From NCBI GenBank assembly GCA_000182565.2, contig KQ257453.1: 11,226 nucleotides of DNA; one strand, 5' to 3'. This DNA comes from Spizellomyces punctatus DAOM BR117. Lineage: Eukaryota. Below the pieces are notes generated by a model. It had not been told where the DNA came from. It made no database searches and was given only the letters and a program-made list of their open reading frames with translations. The position numbers were made by a program, and so were the translations under genes. Positions 2,025 through 11,226 of this stretch are shown here, piece after piece. How positions within the stretch are numbered: the first letter of the stretch is position 1; each line of letters starts with the position of its first letter.

Positions 2025-4348
2025 GAGGTACTCGTCAACAGCCTAACCAAGACTGTGTGCGTTGGTCGCAACTTGTTTTTGCAGCGGTTTCTTCGTAGCG
2101 GAAGGCAGGTTCCTCGCTGTTTGGCAACTTGAACGAGTGCCAACAGCCGATGGTCCGCCATTGATGTCATTTACCGTAAATTGTTTATCACAACTTTTTT
2201 TTTCTTTTGATTCAGCACACGACTAGCAAAAACGGCCAAAAATCGGCGCGCAAAAAAAATAATTCGAAACAAGACTTGCTGCTCTTTGGTTTTTGGGTTT
2301 TGCTTTACGGGAAACCGTTGTCGTGCCATGGCCGTGGCGGTTGGTCGACGGCCCTCCGACGATAGACAAGGGCGGCATCCTTTGACGACGACGGCAACTG
2401 CCACGGCGGGTGACATAATCACAATTGATCCTGTTTCTCCTCTGGCCAGTGATAGGTGACTCTTTGCAACATCACGAGATTGGGATTCCCCCACCTTCTG
2501 TGGACCATCTTTTGTTCCCTAAGCAAGTCCCAAGCGGTGATTCTATCGCTTTTCTTCTCTTTTAACAGCAATGACACGAGACATACAAAATGTCAAGCAG
2601 TCCTCGAGGGATTCTGTAGAGAGCATTCTATGATGTGCACAGTCCTCCATCATTTTCACCGCAGTACACCAACTAGTGTTTCTGCCTTCACACTCCCTGT
2701 TTGCCAAAGCCATTCATATGAGGGATTTATGATCACACATTTCAATTCTTCACTCCGCCTTCGACTGACTGTACAGCCTGCAACAGTGTTTGCAAAAATG
2801 TTTACCTGCATCTTGTCAGGCAAGATGCCCTGTCATAAGTTGTTGTAGCGGAACTTTTGGTTTCCGCCGATGTCCTAAATCTCACTGCAGCGAATTCGGA
2901 CTCTCGCTGCGATAAAAGAGACATCACAGAACCCCAAACAAAGGCTTCGTTAACTGGGGCAAAGAGGCAAGGTGAATCGGTTGGGGTGAACTGAGCAGGA
3001 TTTGGCGGCGCACGAGTGGGGTGATCAGTCGGAAGGTGGTGGTGGTAGGAACGATAGATTTGGGTTGTGATGTCGCTTGCAGGCATGTCGTTGCCTGCTG
3101 CGACCCTTGCTATTTATCCCAGCCCAAAACATCGAGATACAGTATTCTTGAACATTGCAATAGTATTGGAGAACGAGTACTGACTTTTCTTACTTCCACG
3201 TGGTTATCAGCTTTTAACAGTATCATATCTGTGTTTGTATGGCGGGGATCAACGGCTGGTGTCCAATCAAGATCTGATTGAAATTATAGTCCTTGTCGGA
3301 CTATCTTGATTTATTGACATGTCTGACCAGATGGGGCCACAAAGGGCAATTGTACTAGTACATTATTTTAAAAAAGGACACCGACGCGCCATATCCATCG
3401 AGTCAGAAATCACCATACACAGCTGTAACTTTCATTCGTGGTGGGCAGCAAAAGGCCGCGGAGGTCAGTCGAATAGGTGCACCATTACTTGCAGAACACA
3501 GTGATTTTCAGAACACTTGCGGCCGACAAATTTCGTAATGATGGAACGATATGTCGTTATTGATTGCCGTGCGCGGGTGATTGTTCCTGCACCCCGAGGG
3601 GAGGCATTTGTCTCATATGGTTGCTCTGAGCTGGAGTCTCCTTTTGATCAAATCTTTGCAGAGCCTGTGGGGACAAAAGATCCTAATGAGAACACCTACG
3701 ATCAAGGATTACGGATGTCCATGTGTTCCAGAATGATGTTGTTTCTTGCTTTAAAGGTTTAATTGGAGATCGCGATCAGCTTCCATGAACTCACTATCTA
3801 GCAACTGTGTGCAACGGTGCATCTGCTCATCAGAACTATCCCCGCTTCCCCTTGGTAGTGCAGAGCAATGAGCAGTCACTCACCAGGCACCATCACTTAC
3901 GTAGCCCCACTATATTCATAACTTTATTACTATGTCGGTGCAAGGAGGATTCGTCTCCGGTAGTGCGGAGTCTTATCGTGCAAAGCGAACAGAAAAAACG
4001 CGTGGATCGCCCAATCTCACGTTGAAAGTGTGCTATTGTAGGAGTTATACAAGCGCGGCACAACACAGTACCTCAAGATCCCACTTTTCTTGCGCGGAGC
4101 TTTGAGACTGGTGGGAGACAAGACGTCGGTGCGTTATCAAAAGTCTCGCTCGCGCGACCGTCTGCTCATGGGGAGAATAGCAGCCATCGCGGGGTTAACA
4201 TGCTTATGCCCCCGTATCAATTCGGGTGTACAGTTTGTTCACAGTTCGTTGGGTTTGATCGTGGGGTGCAGCGCTGCCCGGAGAATGACCGCTTTAGCAA
4301 GTTTCCCCGTATAATACAAATCCTGTTCTTCTGACAAATGACCATAAC

Positions 4349-4480: not shown

Positions 4481-5986
4481 ATGAAAGCCTGGTTTATTAC
4501 CGCTGTCCTTGTCGCACCCCTTGTTGCGGCTCTTCCGCCGGTTCCCAAGGATGGTGAATTGCATTGTATTGGCGCTTGTCAGCAAGGAGGTACGTCTGCA
4601 AACATTGAGATCAGTCATAAATTCAAGTCTCCAACATGAATCTGTGCATGTTCACACAGATCCCAATTCTCTGATGGGCCGCGTCCTTGAGGCCAAGAAG
4701 GCCGATTGGGAGCAATGCGAAACTTCTACTTCATTGGTTTGCAAGGCCCAACAGAACAGCAGTTCATTTGCCCCCACTGCATCCCTCCAGAGCGTCGGAT
4801 ACAAAAAGTGTGCTAACGGATTTGTAAGTACCAATTCGCAGCAGAAGTCGCCGTGTACTATTGAATAAACCTTCTACTGTATTTGTAGGCTGGAGACTAC
4901 CCATGCAAAGGAGTCGACCTCCTATCCTTCATTCCCCACACCGAGCTCGGAAGCCAAGGTAACGGCAACGACATCTGGGGATGGACGGACCCAACCACCA
5001 AGCGCGAGTATGCCATCATCGGTCAAACAGATGGCACTGCCTTTGTGGACATTACCAGTCCATCGTCCCCAATCTTCCTTGGACGTTTGGCCTCCAACGT
5101 CAACGCCAAAGTACCCTGGAGGGATATCAAAGTCTTTAAGGACCATGCGTTCATCGTCGCTGATGACTCGTCCAATGCACATGCATGCAGGTGTTTGACC
5201 TTCGTACCTTGAGAGCGTTACTCGGCCAAGGATCACAAAGCCGTGCTGACTTACAGAGAAGTCGGAAAGACCCACAACATTGCCATTAACGAGGAGACTG
5301 GGTTTGCGTACCTTGTCGGCTCTCGTACCTGCAATTCGGGTCTGCACATGGTAGACATTAATACCCCGGCCGCTCCCAAGTTTGTTGGATGCGCGAGCTC
5401 TGACGGCTATACCCACGACGTTCAAGTCGTTAACTACAAGGGACCTGATTCTCGCTACCGTGGTCGGGAGATTGCGTTCGCATCCAATGAGGATACTGTC
5501 ACATTCTGGGACGTTACTGACAAGTCGTCGCCCAAGATACTCTCTCGCACTGGATACACGGGTGCTGCGTACACTCACCAGGGATGGCTGACCGAGGACC
5601 ATCAGTACTTTCTCGTTGACGACGAACTCGACGAGAAGAATGGTTCAGACAAGCACACCAAGACCTACATCTGGGACGTCCGCTCCCTCACTGCTCCCAA
5701 GCATATTGGTACCTACAGCGCCCCGGTAACCTCAATCGACCACAACCTGTACATCAAGGGCAACTATGCTTACCTCGCAAACTACGGCTCCGGCTTGCGC
5801 GTCCTCGATATTTCAAAGGTTGCGCAAGCGAAGCTGCAAGAAGTTGCTTACTTTGATGTCACCCCCGAGAAGAATGAGGCCGTCTTTGAAGGATCTTGGT
5901 CTAGCTACATCTACTTTCCCTCTGGAAACATTGTTGTGAACTCTATTGAGAGAGGATTCTTTGTGGTCAAGACGACCACCATTTAG
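4481..5986 (+). CDS. Secreted choice-of-anchor B family / LVIVD-repeat beta-propeller protein (~457 aa if repaired); exons 4481-4589, 4660-4823, 4889-5986; apparent frameshifts at ~5183, ~5215 and ~5242
   Basis: Signal-peptide-like MKAWFITAVLVAPLVAA. Introns 4590-4659 (GTACGT...CACAG) and 4824-4888 (GTAAGT...TGTAG) keep frame. Family motifs: CANGFAGDYPCKGVDLLS, NDIWGWTDP-T-REYAIIG, WRDIKV, HNIAINEETGFAY, YTHDVQVV, AYTHQGWLTED, DDELDE, IDHNLY, ANYGSGLRVLD, GSWSSYIYFPSG, SIERGFFVV. As assembled there is an in-frame TGA at 5210-5212. Confidence 0.88.
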
Positions 5987-6252
5987 ACTATGCTATAATA
6001 ACCGTGCGTAGGATAGGATACCCTGTAGTTCTAGTAGTTCTATGAAACTTTGTACCTCGTCATTGTTGATCAATCGCAGGCATAATGCAGATAATTGCAA
6101 GCCAGAATAAGACCTCGGCTCCTGTAGTCACGTGACTAAAGATTATGTAATAAGATGAGGAACGACCAGAAGAAGAGGGGGTTGTAGAGATATGATGAGT
6201 CACATCAAACGCGTTCCTCTCTGCTTTCTTCCCTCTTCACACTTTGAATAAT

Positions 6253-6284
6253 CATAGTGCGGAGCCGATTGGTATTGGCACTAG
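6253..6284 (+). repeat. Left end of Fanzor1 element: CATA motif (6253-6256, TA as putative TSD) followed by terminal repeat GTGCGGAGCCGATTGGTATTGGCACTAG
   Basis: Seen directly: CATA, then a 30-nt stretch with an internal inverted pair TAGTGC (6255-6260) / GCACTA (6278-6283), about 165 nt upstream of the Fanzor ATG. From knowledge: SpuFz1 uses a 5'-CATA TAM and its element has TIRs. As I recall it, the 3' end of its omegaRNA scaffold (...CUAGUGCCAAUACCCACCGGCUCCGCACUA) is nearly the reverse complement of this stretch. The partner right TIR lies outside the window. Confidence 0.75.
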
Positions 6285-6360
6285 TACATAGATTCCAACC
6301 AATTTAATCATAATTTTACTCGATTTAGACTCATGAACTATGGTTTGATCCAAAAAATCC

Positions 6361-6367
6361 TATATAA
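6361..6367 (+). promoter_or_regulatory. Candidate TATA box of the Fanzor gene
   Basis: TATATAA about 60 nt upstream of ATG 6420, followed by a pyrimidine-rich leader. Confidence 0.4.
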
Positions 6368-6419
6368 GTTGTCGTCGCGCATTTTCCCAGGCTTTCATCT
6401 TTTTCCACAGATATCATCA

Positions 6420-7004
6420 ATGCCACCAAAAAAGAAGCAAAAGCTTGAAAACCCTACTTGCTTACATACCTGCAACAAGACTTCCTTTGCAAAAGCTTTC
6501 CTGCCAAATGACATCTACCGCCAATGGCTTTTAGATTACATCGCCATCATCCATCAACTCGCCGACCACGCTTCCCATGCTCTCAAATTCTACATCCTAT
6601 CTGCACCAACCTTCACCGTGAACGAGGAGACCATCGAAGCGATTCTCTATCTTCTCAACAAGGGGGAGGCTTGGCATCCAAGAAAGGAAGCAAAGAAGGC
6701 ATGGCGGGATTGTTTGCTGCCATATGTTCAACGGTACTGCCACATCATCAGCTTCGTTCATCCAAATCTACAAAAAGAGCAGCAGTCAATCAATTACCTG
6801 ACAGCGAGTATGATGACGAACCTGAAAGTCAACGTTCAAGAGCATTTCATGCAGATGCTCCTTTGGTACATTAATCTGCGGCTCGATGTGAAGGGACAGA
6901 AGCAGCGACTGAAAAGCGATGCGCGAAACGCTTTCTTTGCTCGTCTTCACTACTTGAAGTCAATTTTCCTTTTTGATATCGTGCCCGAGTCACTCGATGA
7001 CTTG
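6420..7004 (+). pseudogene. Fz1: Fanzor1 RNA-guided endonuclease, N-terminal 195 aa (NLS and WED/REC region); RuvC half separated by the retrotransposon insertion
   Basis: MPPKKKQKL...LHTCNKTSFAKAFLPN...LLDYIAIIHQLADHASHALKFYILS...IEAILYLLNKGEAWHPRKEAKKAWRDCLLPYVQRYC...EQQSINYLT-SMMTNLKVNVQEHFMQMLL-YINLR-DVKGQKQRL...YLKS-FLFD-VPE-LDDL closely matches the N-terminus of S. punctatus Fanzor1 as I recall it. Similarity stops exactly at 7004. The ORF track start (6333) is upstream of the likely true ATG (6420). Confidence 0.92.
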
Positions 7005-7604
7005 TGTAACGACGAGGACGTCTTCGAGAGATCGCGAGTAAGCCCAAATCGGACGCGGGAAGCACGAATCGCGTGACCAACTCCACCGATTGGGTTACCG
7101 CGACCGAAAAAACCGGTTCGGAGAATGGCAATTGGCGCATTAGATTTCAGCGTGCCTCGTACAACCTGTGGAGGCCCGAGCCAGTGCGGAAAAGGAAGAG
7201 ATCGGTACCGCCACCAATAAATCAGTTGCGGTGCAGCGACACCCATTAGTTTAGTTTAGTTTAACAGTTTATCCAAGAATCTTGTATAAAAAGGATGTAT
7301 TCAATAAAATAAGTCGGGGGCAGAAGCCGTAGCGACAAAAAATCCCCATAACTCGCTTCTCAACTCCAATCTTAGGTTAACAGGAACCTAACAGAGCGCT
7401 TCAACGGCCTGATCACCCGTACCGAAGCCTCTAAATCCTGCTCGGTTCACAACTAACCGACTCTCCTTGCCTCTCGCCCTCAAGTCGCTACCGACGCCCA
7501 AAGAAAGGATTTGGAGACTACGATTCCTAGTACGGACACCCACACAACCTGCTAGGAGACCCAAGTTGTCTTTACTGTAGTCTACCAACAAAAAATCCGT
7601 TACA
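7005..7604 (+). repeat. 5' LTR, 600 bp
   Basis: Starts TGTAACG (7005-7011) exactly where Fanzor similarity ends and finishes CGTTACA (7598-7604), a perfect 7-bp terminal inverted repeat. Contains TATAAAA 7285-7291, AATAAA 7303-7308 and a short TTTAG iteration at ~7245-7262. The second LTR is not in the window, so the 3' boundary is inferred. Confidence 0.82.
7285..7308 (+). promoter_or_regulatory. LTR TATA box (7285-7291) and polyadenylation-like AATAAA (7303-7308)
   Basis: Canonical motifs in the AT-rich centre of the LTR. Confidence 0.45.
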
Positions 7605-7763: not shown

Positions 7764-10700
7764 ATGATGCCGGTCGAACGCTCACCAACGCGAGGCCGCT
7801 CACCTGTGATCCAGACTCGTAGTCAGGGTCCTGCGGAGGACGTCGAAGTCCCTCCCGCAACACGCCCAAGGCGTTCAGGGACCACTTCCGTCGAACCGGA
7901 AGCCCCTAACTTGGCCACGATGGCCTCTGAAGTGGCAGCGTTAAAAGAAGACATTGCCCGCTCGACTGCTGCAACGCAGTTGGCAACTCAAAACCTTACG
8001 GAACAGCTTCATAGGCTTTCCGAACGTCAGACAGCGGCGGATGAGCGCCTCGCACGAGCCTTAGAAGCCCTAGCGCATCGCCCGCTGCCTGAACAACCTC
8101 CCATAGCACGAGCTACAAGAGAACGGTCCGCAACCCCGTGGGAAACGGCGGACACACCAAGGGAGCGTACCGAACCAAGTTTTTCAGGTGCGGTGCCTCC
8201 AATCCAAGTGCCAGCGGCCCCGTGGGCCAGCGACACCAAGGTCGATTCCTTGAAAGCAAAGGACGTACCCGAGTTTACGGGCAGAAGAAACCAAGACGTT
8301 GAAGAATGGCTTAACAAAGTCCAACTTCTTCAAAACGTTAGCGCAACGTCGGATGCCAGGATGGTACAGCTCCTACCAGCCATGATAGCCGAGAAAACCC
8401 CTGCTGACGCTTGGTTTTACACTCTGGAAGCCCAGGAAACTCGCTCATGGACCTGGAAAAGGTGGAAAGAGGAACTGCTTCGAGAGTTCCGAGATCCCCT
8501 AACCGAGTCCAAGCGCAAAACCGAATATGTGCGCTGCCATGCGAACCCCAAAGAATTTCGCAGCTTTCTCGCGTTCATCGACCACAAAACTCATCTCCGG
8601 CGCCTCGCTTATGGCGACCGGGCAAACATAGAATGTCCCGCTGACCAGCATTTCGACCTAATAGTCGAACAATTGCCCAGCGACATCCAAATCATGGTCA
8701 AATCCTGTAACGTCACGAACCTGACCAAATTAAAAGACTTCCTGCGCCTTTATTTCGGCTCTGATGACACCAGAAAACGAGACCCTTGCTACAGCGGTGC
8801 TGCAGAAGCTCAGAAGAAGTCACAAAAGACCGGAACCGACAAAGGCCCTAAGCAGACGGCTCCGCATAAAACCGGAAACCCCGAAAAGGGTCGCGATGGT
8901 CCTCAGAAGATGGTTCCGGACCCCAACAAGGAACCACCGGCACCCTGCAAATTCTGTCAGAAAAAGCATTGGAATGTTTTCTGCTGGCAGAACCCGAACC
9001 GAAAAGATCCTGAAGATGGAAAGAAAGGACCATATGGAGCACCCATGCCCTCAGGTTGGAAACCCAAACAGGAATCGAAGAAGGCGTACATAGTGGAGCT
9101 GGACTCGACGTCCGCTACCACCGAGACTCTTTTTTCGGCTTCGGAACTGGAAAGAACGGAAGCCGCTAATCAAGGATTCCACACCATCGGGTTCTTTCAT
9201 TCACCCAAGCACTCGGAATCAACAATTTTGATGACCGCACCTCTTTCCAAGGTCACGGTGACCAAGGAAGAGGACCCCCGCACGCCCACGCAGGGCTGGG
9301 ACCGAGTCTGGGACAACATAGCCATCATCTGGGGCACCCCGCAAGTGGCTCTGATGATGGGCAACAACCCCCGCGCGCTCAGCTTCTTCGCCAAAGAACC
9401 GAAGCGAGGCGCCGGGCACCTCGGGAACGACCCCTACGCAGTCGCGTGGAGTTCCCACCACCTCTACATCGCTGCCGCAGCCGAAGCTGACAAGGATCGA
9501 ATCCTGCGAAAGGTCCGAGAAGACGGTACCCCTCGTTTGATTCTCCTTGCCTGGATAAAGCTCGACGAGCGCGAGAAATTCTTGATGTGGAGCTCTGAAG
9601 ATCCTGTTATCTTTGATGCGTACGCCAACCTGCAACTGGTGGCATTTCTCCTGACAGGCAATATCGTTCGCTCAGACTATTATTATCGTCGCGGAAACCC
9701 CAAATTTCGGCACGTTAAAGACCATCCACGTCTCCAAAGACACGAAGAGAGCGAACGGACGCGTATAGTCATGCTGGCTATCGAACAAGTTGCTCGCCAG
9801 AATAAAACAACAAAACCACAAAACGACAAAACTAGAGAACACTTTGAGAGTGTGATCAAGGCTACGGAAGCAACAATTAACGACATCGCGCCCCATTTCG
9901 AGATCGCGGTGCCTTCTATCAACGCCTTCTACTCAGTAGATTTAGGCGATGTACTCAAAAGCCAGACTAAGACCCAAACGCAGCCTTGCTGGACGCTAGC
10001 CGTCATCGCGCAGCTCTGGGCACCTGTGGTACTAGACACAGGGGCCTGCGAGTCTCTGATTTCCGACACGTACCAAGGCCTTCTGTTCTCCGAAACCGAT
10101 TTGCAGGATGCGGAAACGATGGCTTTCAACGGCATTGGTGGACGTATCTCATCTACCAAGACAGTATGCCTCGAAACTTCCCTCAGAGGCCGCGGCGGAG
10201 AATACCTGACTTTCCGCGCCTACTTTCGGGTCATCGCGTACGGGAAACCTCTCATCATCCTAGCCAACGACGTTTTGGGACATTTGAAACTCCAAACCTT
10301 GGTTCAGGAACCCCCGTTACCCAGTTTCGCGGTGACGCTCAAGAATCCAGACATCCTTATCCCCTGCTCCATAACGGATGAGCTGGACACCGATCACATG
10401 CGCGGCACGCCATACAAGACCAAGCAGGGTGAATTCATGAAGGATGTGTCAATGCCACGGCTGACCAAAGCCAAAGCTCAGAAGTCTAGATTAACCATGT
10501 TAATCACGGGACAGACGCGCGTGGCAGCCCAAACTTTTCTCATCGAAAACCCTCTTGAGGCCACCGCTGCTAGCTCAACGGTCCCGTTAGGCCTCAAACT
10601 GTCCACCGCGACCCATAATTCGGTTGCGGACCCCGAAGAGAACATTTCCAAAGAAGAATGGCAGACACTTCGGAACAAATGGAACCTCGACTCTACGGAG

Positions 10701-11226
10701 AGGGCTCCAGGGGCCTTCGAAGCCCAATTAAAAGACGCGGAACGTTTCCACGTCGATCTCAAGCGACCCAAACCCGTGGTCTGGGCCCTAATCAACATTC
10801 TACGACACTTCCATCAAGCCTTCAGCTATGAGGGTCATCTCATAGGGAACTACACCAAGATTCCTTATGCGCCTCGATTTATCTCGGCTCCGCCACCCCT
10901 TTCGAGGCCACGGTCGTACTCTCCGTTGGAGCGGACAGCCCTCGAGACGGAGCGAGACACCATGATGGGGCTTCAGAGGTGGAAACGAACCACCGAAGTA
11001 ACCTTCGCCAGCGATCCTGTTATCATTCGCTATGCAGACAAACCCCCGCGCGTAGCCTTCGACTATCGCCGAGCCAACGACTGCATGGCCTGGGATCCAT
11101 ATCCCTTTCCCATCATGCTCGACATCCTGAACTGGATCGTCGCAGTCCCATTCCGATACATATCGGGAGGTGACGCAAACAAAGGATTCTACCAAATCGC
11201 ATCAACGGATGCGTCGGTACGCAATG
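7764..11226 (+). CDS. gag-pol: Single-frame Gag-Pol polyprotein (>=1154 aa, 3' partial): Gag, CCHC knuckle, extra MTase-like domain, aspartic protease, reverse transcriptase N-terminus
   Basis: Translated by hand from ATG 7764 with no stop to the window end, which explains its absence from the ORF track. Gag: DVPEFTG...DVEEWLNKV...ADAWFYTL...TWKRWKEELLREF. Knuckle: CKFCQKKHWNVFC at 8946-8984. Protease: VVLDTGACESLIS (DTG at 10035-10043) and IILAND at ~10254-10271. RT: PRVAFDYRRAN at 11046-11078, DPYPFP, DANKGFYQI at 11172-11198. Confidence 0.93.
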   Translation, partial: MMPVERSPTRGRSPVIQTRSQGPAEDVEVPPATRPRRSGTTSVEPEAPNLATMASEVAALKEDIARSTAATQLATQNLTEQLHRLSERQTAADERLARALEALAHRPLPEQPPIARATRERSATPWETADTPRERTEPSFSGAVPPIQVPAAPWASDTKVDSLKAKDVPEFTGRRNQDVEEWLNKVQLLQNVSATSDARMVQLLPAMIAEKTPADAWFYTLEAQETRSWTWKRWKEELLREFRDPLTESKRKTEYVRCHANPKEFRSFLAFIDHKTHLRRLAYGDRANIECPADQHFDLIVEQLPSDIQIMVKSCNVTNLTKLKDFLRLYFGSDDTRKRDPCYSGAAEAQKKSQKTGTDKGPKQTAPHKTGNPEKGRDGPQKMVPDPNKEPPAPCKFCQKKHWNVFCWQNPNRKDPEDGKKGPYGAPMPSGWKPKQESKKAYIVELDSTSATTETLFSASELERTEAANQGFHTIGFFHSPKHSESTILMTAPLSKVTVTKEEDPRTPTQGWDRVWDNIAIIWGTPQVALMMGNNPRALSFFAKEPKRGAGHLGNDPYAVAWSSHHLYIAAAAEADKDRILRKVREDGTPRLILLAWIKLDEREKFLMWSSEDPVIFDAYANLQLVAFLLTGNIVRSDYYYRRGNPKFRHVKDHPRLQRHEESERTRIVMLAIEQVARQNKTTKPQNDKTREHFESVIKATEATINDIAPHFEIAVPSINAFYSVDLGDVLKSQTKTQTQPCWTLAVIAQLWAPVVLDTGACESLISDTYQGLLFSETDLQDAETMAFNGIGGRISSTKTVCLETSLRGRGGEYLTFRAYFRVIAYGKPLIILANDVLGHLKLQTLVQEPPLPSFAVTLKNPDILIPCSITDELDTDHMRGTPYKTKQGEFMKDVSMPRLTKAKAQKSRLTMLITGQTRVAAQTFLIENPLEATAASSTVPLGLKLSTATHNSVADPEENISKEEWQTLRNKWNLDSTERAPGAFEAQLKDAERFHVDLKRPKPVVWALINILRHFHQAFSYEGHLIGNYTKIPYAPRFISAPPPLSRPRSYSPLERTALETERDTMMGLQRWKRTTEVTFASDPVIIRYADKPPRVAFDYRRANDCMAWDPYPFPIMLDILNWIVAVPFRYISGGDANKGFYQIASTDASVRN
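9297..9659 (+). other. Extra polyprotein domain resembling a degenerate DNA N6-adenine methyltransferase (DIRS MT / phage Dam-like fold)
   Basis: WDNIAIIWGTPQVALMMGNNPRALSFFAKEPKRGAGHLGNDPYAVAWSSHHLYIAAAAEADKDRILRKVREDGTPRLILLAW...LQLVAFLLTG aligns by eye, in order and spacing, with the DIRS MT pattern I-x3-WG-x-P-x-VDLFA-x3-N...F...P..GA...DAF...W...Y-x-(F/N)PP...VL-x-K-x3-D...ILI-x-P-x-W...L-x-L-x-AW-x-(L/I)SG. The key residues DLFA and (N/F)PP are replaced. Confidence 0.6.

What the first reader, a model, noticed from the sequence alone, without database searches (positions are those of the whole stretch)
6253..7004. Fanzor1 locus with intact left end: CATA motif, terminal repeat mirroring the omegaRNA 3' scaffold, NLS-bearing ORF
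Seen: CATA directly abuts a 28-nt terminal sequence with a TAGTGC/GCACTA inverted pair, followed by a TATA box and an ORF starting MPPKKKQKL. Knowledge: Fanzors are eukaryotic TnpB/Cas12 relatives guided by an omegaRNA from the element's right end, and SpuFz1 recognises a CATA TAM that matches its insertion site. Inference: this is a diverged SpuFz1 relative. Against my recollection it has small indels near KLENPTCLH, ILSAPTF, QRLKSD and VPESLDD, and it could be a new ortholog to reconstruct. The system class is known; this variant may not be.
Basis: partly seen in the sequence, partly recalled or inferred. Interest (0 to 1): 0.75.

Follow-up and report, generated by a model that had tools for sequence, protein, structure and literature searches.

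The report
Broken copy of known Fanzor transposon
This is the left end and first third of a Fanzor1 (SpuFz1-family) transposon gene that a jumping retroelement has cut in two. It is an ordinary dead copy of a family already described in detail in the fungus Spizellomyces punctatus.

Summary
CATA lies at 6253-6256, the terminal repeat at 6257-6284, TATATAA at 6361-6367, and an ORF starting MPPKKKQKL at 6420.

The ORF matches solved SpuFz1 (PDB 8GKH) at E 5.8e-102. It is 79-89% identical to 14 long annotated S. punctatus DAOM BR117 paralogues.

Only about 195 of about 630 codons are present. Homology stops at 7004. There, sister copies continue the Fanzor frame, and other copies of an LTR element begin at 7005 with unrelated flanks. 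A Ty3/Gypsy chromovirus-type retrotransposon (gag-protease-RT ORF 7764-11225, open at the window end) has therefore split the gene.

The REC C-terminal part, RuvC, the zinc finger, the right end and the omegaRNA are all absent from the window.

The copy is not unusually diverged. Its mean identity to ten paralogues is 88.7%, inside their own range.

Saito et al. 2023 (PMC10432273) already report 42 Fz loci, 30-nt inverted repeats preceded by CA, the CATA TAM, and Gypsy/Ty3 insertions in Fz genes.

Verdict: already known, low interest.

The parts
6253..6256 (+). CATA abutting the element: the conserved CA (6253-6254) plus TA. It is identical to the SpuFz1 TAM.
   Evidence: Sequence. Sister-copy contigs begin to match at 6253. 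TAM and the conserved CA are as published.
6255..6284 (+). Left-end inverted repeat. It has an internal TAGTGC/GCACTA pair.
   Evidence: Length and the preceding CA agree with the paper's wording. The partner repeat is not in the window.
6285..6419 (+). Promoter / 5' leader with TATATAA at 6361-6367 (inferred promoter).
   Evidence: Sequence. A sister-copy contig aligns over 6346-6503 (record 2). Promoter function is inferred, not shown.
6420..7004 (+). First 195 codons of a Fanzor1 gene: basic N-terminus, N-terminal WED residues and the first part of REC, including the TAM-reading residues.
   Evidence: E 5.8e-102 to PDB 8gkh SpuFz1. tblastn with 20 of 20 relatives hits only this interval.
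7005..7076 (+). Read-through of the broken ORF into the retroelement: 23 foreign codons, then TGA.
   Evidence: Translation. The alignment loses homology after L195.
7005..7382 (+). 5' LTR of the inserted retrotransposon. It starts TGTAAC at 7005. The 3' limit is tentative (...TTAACA at 7382).
   Evidence: Other copies start at 7004/7005 with unlike flanks in X2 and X10, and X1's 6239-nt contig starts at 7005. The end is not verified, because the second LTR lies outside the window.
7764..11225 (+). gag-protease-(start of RT) ORF of a Ty3/Gypsy chromovirus-type retrotransposon, 1154 codons, still open at the window end.

Best explanation
Window 6253-7004 is the left end (CA + 30-nt inverted repeat), the leader and the first 195 codons of one of the many SPu-1/SpuFz1 Fanzor1 transposon copies of Spizellomyces punctatus. 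An LTR retrotransposon of the Ty3/Gypsy chromovirus type integrated between codons 195 and 196, at 7004|7005.

The ORF now runs 23 codons into the LTR and stops at 7076. The product, if made at all, would have the basic N-terminus, the N-terminal WED residues and part of REC. It would lack the rest of REC/WED, the RuvC triad and the zinc finger, so it cannot cut DNA.

In an intact element the nuclease binds an omegaRNA transcribed across the right-end repeat. It then cleaves DNA that carries CATA followed by the guide match. That part of the mechanism is taken from the literature and is not visible here.

Shown here: homology, both boundaries and the nature of the insert. Inferred: promoter, NLS function and inactivity.
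For: - Homology to SpuFz1. P0001 residues 2-197 match the PDB 8gkh SpuFz1 chain at E 5.8e-102. P0014 (SPPG_07727) is that solved protein over residues 2-638.
- Paralogues. 20 proteins scored E<=0.001 among 480 candidates, and 16 of the 20 are named S. punctatus DAOM BR117. The 14 long matches are 79-89% identical.
- Extent in the window. tblastn with all 20 gives one hit each, all within 6420-7028 and none elsewhere in the window.
- End of homology. The alignment loses homology after ...ESLDDL, L195 = 7002-7004.
- Sister copies continue. Contigs of sister copies run on after 7004 (3 in X1, 2 in X2) with letters that encode T-A-E-E-S-E-L, as the paralogues read.
- The insert starts at 7005. Other LTR copies begin at 7004/7005 with unrelated flanks in X2 and X10, and X1's 6239-nt contig starts exactly at 7005.
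- Left boundary. Sister-copy similarity starts at 6253.
- Nature of the insert. P0002 has 154 relatives at E<=0.001. I scanned the 4 long ones, and all 4 carry RNase H and the integrase zinc-binding domain after the matched protease-RT stretch; 3 of 4 have a Chromo domain and 2 of 4 have RVT_1. Atlas neighbours are retroelement protease/RT clusters.
- TAM- and RNA-contact residues. H21, T22, K25, R96, Q129, Q130, N133 and Q148 of SpuFz1 are kept. R157 is W in this copy (contacts as named in the paper).
- Literature (PMC10432273, section 7 read in full). It reports 42 Fz loci (19 full-length), 30-nt inverted repeats with CA upstream, and 11 loci with further genes including Gypsy/Ty3 inserted in the Fz gene.
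Against: - The 195 codons carry no stop or frameshift and keep 8 of 9 checked contact residues. The break is therefore recent, or the fragment could still be expressed; nothing here excludes expression.
- This Pfam copy gave no significant family for the fragment (best hit DUF7863, E 0.059). It gave none for full-length SpuFz1 either (0 families), so Fanzor membership rests on pairwise homology.
- The retroelement ORF has no significant Pfam hit of its own, no hit in the word-indexed protein search and none in the PDB. Its class rests.
- The second LTR, the target-site duplication and the rest of the Fanzor gene lie outside the window. Insertion into a once-complete gene is inferred.
- I could not see Supplementary Data 1 and 2 of the paper, so I cannot say that this very locus is among its 42.
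Confidence: 0.93

Rival explanations
1. The truncated gene is still used. From its intact promoter it makes a nuclear N-terminal WED/REC fragment that binds CATA sites or the omegaRNA-target duplex, and so modulates the full-length Fanzor copies.
For: The frame is open over 195 codons, the basic N-terminus is kept, and the TAM-reading residues R88/Q121/Q122/N125 (SpuFz1 R96/Q129/Q130/N133) are kept. The leader with TATATAA is intact.
Against: Among the 10 S. punctatus copies aligned, three residues otherwise invariant are changed only in this copy: R36W, G111S and R149W. R149 corresponds to SpuFz1 R157, an RNA-backbone contact, so this looks like decay. REC is incomplete, since REC residues are named up to S269 in the paper. 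The exact ORF is not in the protein collection.
Confidence: 0.03
2. It is a new, diverged Fanzor1 ortholog from another organism, worth reconstructing.
For: It is 81% identical to SpuFz1 itself, with several small indels.
Against: The best matches are other S. punctatus DAOM BR117 paralogues, up to 89%. Its mean identity to them (88.7%) lies inside the range of their own means (86.2-91.8%). The paper states that the paralogues share about 82% identity. Run X1 holds the flank and the LTR start with 0 differences alongside many sister copies. The indels are shared with paralogues, except the QRL/KSD gap.
Confidence: 0.02
3. The Fanzor fragment is a 5' stub left by a deletion or rearrangement, and the LTR element merely lies next to it. 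No downstream half exists.
For: Neither the 3' LTR nor the rest of the gene is in the window.
Against: The junction coincides to the base with the start of the LTR, where other copies of that element also begin. That is what an integration gives. The paper reports Ty3 inserted in Fz genes.
Confidence: 0.04

Closest known systems
SpuFz1 (SPPG_07727, PDB 8GKH), Fanzor1 of Spizellomyces punctatus DAOM BR117 (Saito et al. 2023, PMC10432273)
   Same: Same family and the same N-terminal architecture. 81% identity over the first ~200 residues. Same MPPKKKQKL start. TAM-reading residues kept. CATA at the left end equals its TAM.
   Different: Only 195 of 638 codons are present. It has no RuvC triad, no zinc finger and no omegaRNA. 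R157 is replaced by W. There are small indels against SpuFz1, most of them shared with other paralogues.
SPu-1 element (Bao and Jurka 2013, PMC3627910; passages seen)
   Same: A single-ORF element of about 2.1 kb with terminal inverted repeats and a putative TA target duplication. The left end here fits: TA followed by the repeat.
   Different: The element here is interrupted. Its right end is not in the window, so neither the repeat pair nor the TA duplication can be checked.
Fz loci with Gypsy/Ty3 inserted in the Fz gene (Saito et al. 2023, section 7)
   Same: This situation is described there for some of the 11 loci that hold further genes. The insert here is a Ty3/Gypsy chromovirus-type element.
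   Different: I could not see the supplementary locus lists, so identity with a listed locus is not shown.
TnpB of IS200/IS605 elements
   Same: The general logic recalled from the literature is the same: a TAM at the left-end junction, and a guide RNA from the right end (for Fz).
   Different: This is a eukaryotic Fz1 with an enlarged REC. The element has inverted repeats and no transposase was found within them (Discussion passage). None of the nuclease part is present here.

Membership tests
Fanzor1 (SpuFz1 / SPu-1 family) | Significant sequence homology to characterised Fanzor1 proteins | tested here: met
   E 5.8e-102 to the 8gkh SpuFz1 chain. 79-89% identity to 14 long S. punctatus paralogues.
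Fanzor1 (SpuFz1 / SPu-1 family) | RuvC catalytic residues (SpuFz1 D383, E541, D606) and the C4 zinc finger | tested here: not met
   No part of the window matches beyond SpuFz1 residue ~207. The gene is cut at 7004. The copy is a fragment of a member, not a working member.
Fanzor1 (SpuFz1 / SPu-1 family) | Left-end inverted repeat of about 30 nt preceded by conserved CA (CATA junction) | tested here: met
   CA 6253-6254 plus 30 nt 6255-6284. Sister copies start to match at 6253. The wording is in the paper. I could not compare letters with the published logo, because figures and supplements are not held.
Fanzor1 (SpuFz1 / SPu-1 family) | Right-end inverted repeat and omegaRNA scaffold followed by a guide | tested here: not met
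   No second copy of the 28-mer on either strand at up to 3 mismatches. No Rfam match. The right end would lie beyond the retroelement, outside the window.
Fanzor1 (SpuFz1 / SPu-1 family) | TAM-reading residues in REC (R96, Q129, Q130, N133 of SpuFz1) | tested here: met
   R88, Q121, Q122 and N125 in this copy. The contacts are named.
Ty3/Gypsy (chromovirus-type) LTR retrotransposon | Polyprotein order gag - aspartic protease - RT - RNase H - integrase (- chromodomain) | tested here: inconclusive
   The window holds gag, a D-T-G protease motif and the first RT residues only. Of 154 relatives I scanned 4 long ones. All 4 have RNase H and the integrase zinc-binding domain downstream of the matched stretch, 3 of 4 have Chromo, and 2 of 4 have RVT_1. 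The ORF's own Pfam hits are not significant (RVP E 0.15).
Ty3/Gypsy (chromovirus-type) LTR retrotransposon | Two LTRs (TG...CA) and a target-site duplication | not testable with these tools
   Only the 5' LTR start (TG at 7005) is in the window. The self-comparison finds no second LTR.

The most novel reading that the evidence does not exclude
The retroelement-truncated gene is expressed from its intact promoter as a nuclear WED/REC stub. The stub keeps the CATA-reading residues and acts as a decoy or regulator of the full-length Fanzor copies.
Probability: 0.03. Interest if true: 0.4.

Novelty: already known. Interest (0 to 1): 0.08.

Why it matters
It matters little. The family, its repeats, its TAM, its guide RNA, its copy number in this fungus and even Ty3/Gypsy insertions into its genes are in print (PMC10432273). 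The locus adds one more example of nested transposon insertion. It offers no new nuclease, because the catalytic half is not there and the copy is not unusually diverged.

Tried and rejected
- Own genome: none is held for this window, so I could not follow the contig past 11226.
- Sister-element DNA. The protein-profile scan of viral contigs gave 2 loci at only 22% identity, which are distant giant-virus Fanzors and no use for the repeat. The same scan of genome contigs gave 0 of 57 candidates, and of metagenome contigs 0 of 196 candidates.
- A 20-mer of the left-end repeat found 2 metagenome stretches. They share only 21 nt, have no Fanzor ORF and sit in G+C-rich unrelated sequence. I rejected them as chance.
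- The omegaRNA or repeat letters are not in the main text of PMC10432273 or PMC11423790. Supplements were not seen.
- Rfam gave 0 matches and tRNA search 0 genes.
- Classifying the retroelement through Pfam on its own ORF, the word-indexed protein search and the PDB gave nothing significant.
- Expression. In run X14 (guessed RNA) the pieces on the Fanzor part differ by 17 and 9 letters, so they come from other copies. Only an LTR piece is exact. This says nothing either way for this copy.
- The 144-nt skip 7131-7276 seen in one X1 contig was not pursued.
- The exact 218-aa ORF is not in the protein collection.
- Earlier scan notes held nothing on this genome or on this protein. A word search returned only giant-virus ghost elements, which do not bear on this locus.

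Full report
**What is in the sequence**

- CATA at 6253-6256.
- A 28-nt stretch at 6257-6284.
- TAGTGC (6255-6260) and GCACTA (6279-6284) form a 6-bp inverted pair.
- TATATAA at 6361-6367.
- An ATG at 6420 opening a frame that starts MPPKKKQKL and runs to a TGA at 7074-7076 (218 residues, P0001).

The hairpin alone is unremarkable. As DNA it gives z -1.28, and 22 of 200 shuffles fold as well. The reverse complement folded as RNA gives z -1.81, with 10 of 200 as good. If the TA is counted with the repeat, the layout is CA plus a 30-nt repeat (6255-6284). That is the published wording for this family.

**What the ORF is**

P0001 residues 2-197 match the solved SpuFz1 chain (8gkh and six further entries) at E 5.8e-102. 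A search among longer proteins gave 20 hits at E<=0.001 among 480 candidates. Sixteen of the 20 are named as Spizellomyces punctatus DAOM BR117 proteins, and the 14 long matches are 79-89% identical. P0014 (SPPG_07727, 638 aa) is the solved SpuFz1 itself over residues 2-638, so the paper's residue numbers can be carried over.

This Pfam copy gives nothing significant for the fragment. It gives nothing for full-length SpuFz1 either, so membership rests on pairwise homology.

**How much of the gene is here**

tblastn with all 20 relatives gives one hit each. All lie within 6420-7028, and none lies elsewhere in the window on either strand. In the alignment, homology ends after ...VPESLDDL (L195, bases 7002-7004). 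After that the window reads CNDEDVFERSR..., where the paralogues read TAEESELLEE....

The window therefore holds about 195 of about 630 codons. By the residues the paper names, this covers the basic N-terminus, the N-terminal WED residues (H21, T22, K25) and the first part of REC. It lacks later REC residues (R260-S269), the WED loop (R291, Y345), the RuvC residues (D383, E541, D606) and the zinc finger.

**Boundaries, from other copies**

I laid Logan contigs of four coded runs on 5900-7500 at 80% likeness.
- Run X1 holds the left flank 5900-6282 and the stretch 7005-7500 with 0 differences, so it carries this locus.
- Sister copies begin to match exactly at 6253, with unlike flanks before it (2 contigs, flank agreement 0.58). 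Summed depth rises from 670 to 1638 in bin 6224-6277. This fits a repeat present at many element ends.
- At 7004, contigs of sister copies (3 in X1, 2 in X2) run on with letters that encode T-A-E-E-S-E-L, which is the paralogue reading.
- At 7004/7005, other contigs in X2 and X10 arrive from unrelated flanks, and X1's 6239-nt contig starts exactly at 7005.

So 7004|7005 is the junction between the Fanzor gene and the first base of a repeated element that starts TGTAAC.

**What the insert is**

From 7764 a 1154-codon frame runs to the window end. It has a gag-like part with a Cys/His knuckle, a D-T-G protease motif and the first residues of a reverse transcriptase.

Its own Pfam hits are not significant (RVP E 0.15). 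The word-indexed protein search found none, and neither did the PDB. A full HMMER scan of representatives found 154 relatives at E<=0.001.

I scanned the four long relatives with Pfam:
- All four carry RNase H and the integrase zinc-binding domain downstream of the matched stretch.
- Three of four end in a chromodomain.
- Two of four have RVT_1.

Atlas neighbours are retroelement protease/RT clusters. The insert is thus a Ty3/Gypsy, chromovirus-type LTR retrotransposon.

Its 5' LTR starts at 7005. The LTR's end is tentative (...TTAACA at 7382), because the second LTR is outside the window.

**Is the copy unusual?**

It is not. I aligned 10 of the 16 S. punctatus hits and left out the shorter or partial models P0004, P0007, P0012, P0016, P0021 and P0022. 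Over the N-terminal region the copy's mean identity to those ten is 88.7% (range 85.4-90.8). The others' means run from 86.2 to 91.8%. The paper gives about 82% identity among SpuFz1 proteins.

For example, P0008 has the same short KLE...KPT, P0003, P0008 and P0009 share F-TVNEE, and every aligned sequence except SpuFz1 lacks the two extra residues in VPE..SLDD. Only the QRL/KSD gap is private among the S. punctatus copies.

Private substitutions are R36W, G111S and R149W. R149W corresponds to SpuFz1 R157, an RNA-backbone contact. At both R-to-W sites the laid contigs of other copies read C where the window reads T (6525, 6864). This looks like ordinary decay. Eight of nine checked contact residues, including all four TAM readers, are kept.

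**How it works**

In an intact element, as published, the nuclease binds an omegaRNA of about 75 nt of scaffold that spans the right-end repeat, plus 14-15 nt of flanking guide. It cuts DNA that carries CATA next to the guide match.

Here only the left end and the N-terminal third survive in the window. The frame ends 23 codons into the LTR. I therefore read the locus as a dead copy split by a nested retrotransposon insertion (confidence 0.93).

What is shown and what is inferred:
- Shown: homology, both boundaries and the nature of the insert.
- Inferred: promoter use, NLS function of the basic start, inactivity, and that the rest of the gene lies beyond the retroelement.

**What could not be tested**

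- No right end is in the window. The 28-mer occurs once on both strands at up to 3 mismatches, and Rfam finds nothing.
- No genome is held for this window.
- Profile scans of the viral, genome and metagenome collections gave no close relative.
- Two 20-mer hits in metagenomes are chance matches.
- The letters are not in the main texts of the two papers, and supplements were closed.

The claim is consistent with the paper's statement that the omegaRNA spans the 3' inverted repeat.

**Comparison with what is known**

Saito et al. 2023 (PMC10432273; I read section 7 in full and passages elsewhere) report, for this fungus:
- 42 loci with full-length (19) or partial Fz genes.
- 134 ghost loci.
- 30-nt inverted repeats preceded by CA.
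- The CATA TAM.
- 11 loci with further genes, including Gypsy/Ty3 inserted in the Fz gene.

Bao and Jurka 2013 (PMC3627910; passages seen) described the SPu-1 element with terminal inverted repeats and a putative TA duplication. This locus fits those descriptions. Whether it is one of the listed loci I cannot say without the supplementary lists.

**Verdict**

Already known, with low interest.

Noticed in passing
window 4889-5986 (+): A host gene for an LVIVD-repeat protein ends 267 bp upstream of the Fanzor left end (LVIVD E 5.3e-08). The in-frame stop at 5210-5212 lies inside a 66-nt GT...AG intron candidate (5191-5256) with a CTGAC branch-like motif, so the gene looks intact.
   Followed up: partly
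window 2963-3028 versus 7409-7474: A 66-68-nt inverted match of 78-79% joins the region just downstream of the retroelement's LTR to a spot about 4 kb upstream. It may be a remnant of a related element in the opposite orientation. No retroelement protein similarity is found there.
   Followed up: partly
window 7131-7276: One contig of run X1 skips 144 nt inside the LTR (table 5). This suggests LTR length variants among copies of the retroelement.
   Followed up: no
window 6525 and 6864: The two private Arg-to-Trp changes are TGG, where contigs of the other copies read C at the first base (table 3). These are C-to-T changes at CpG in this copy.
   Followed up: partly
window 6333-6419: An upstream ATG at 6333 is in frame with the Fanzor start. 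It lies before the TATATAA, and the paralogue proteins start at MPPKKK, so it is probably not used.
   Followed up: no
L001 2001-3494 and L002 2001-3479: Two viral (IMG/VR) contigs encode distant Fanzor-like proteins, 22% identical over SpuFz1 residues 138-628. I did not study them further.
   Followed up: no
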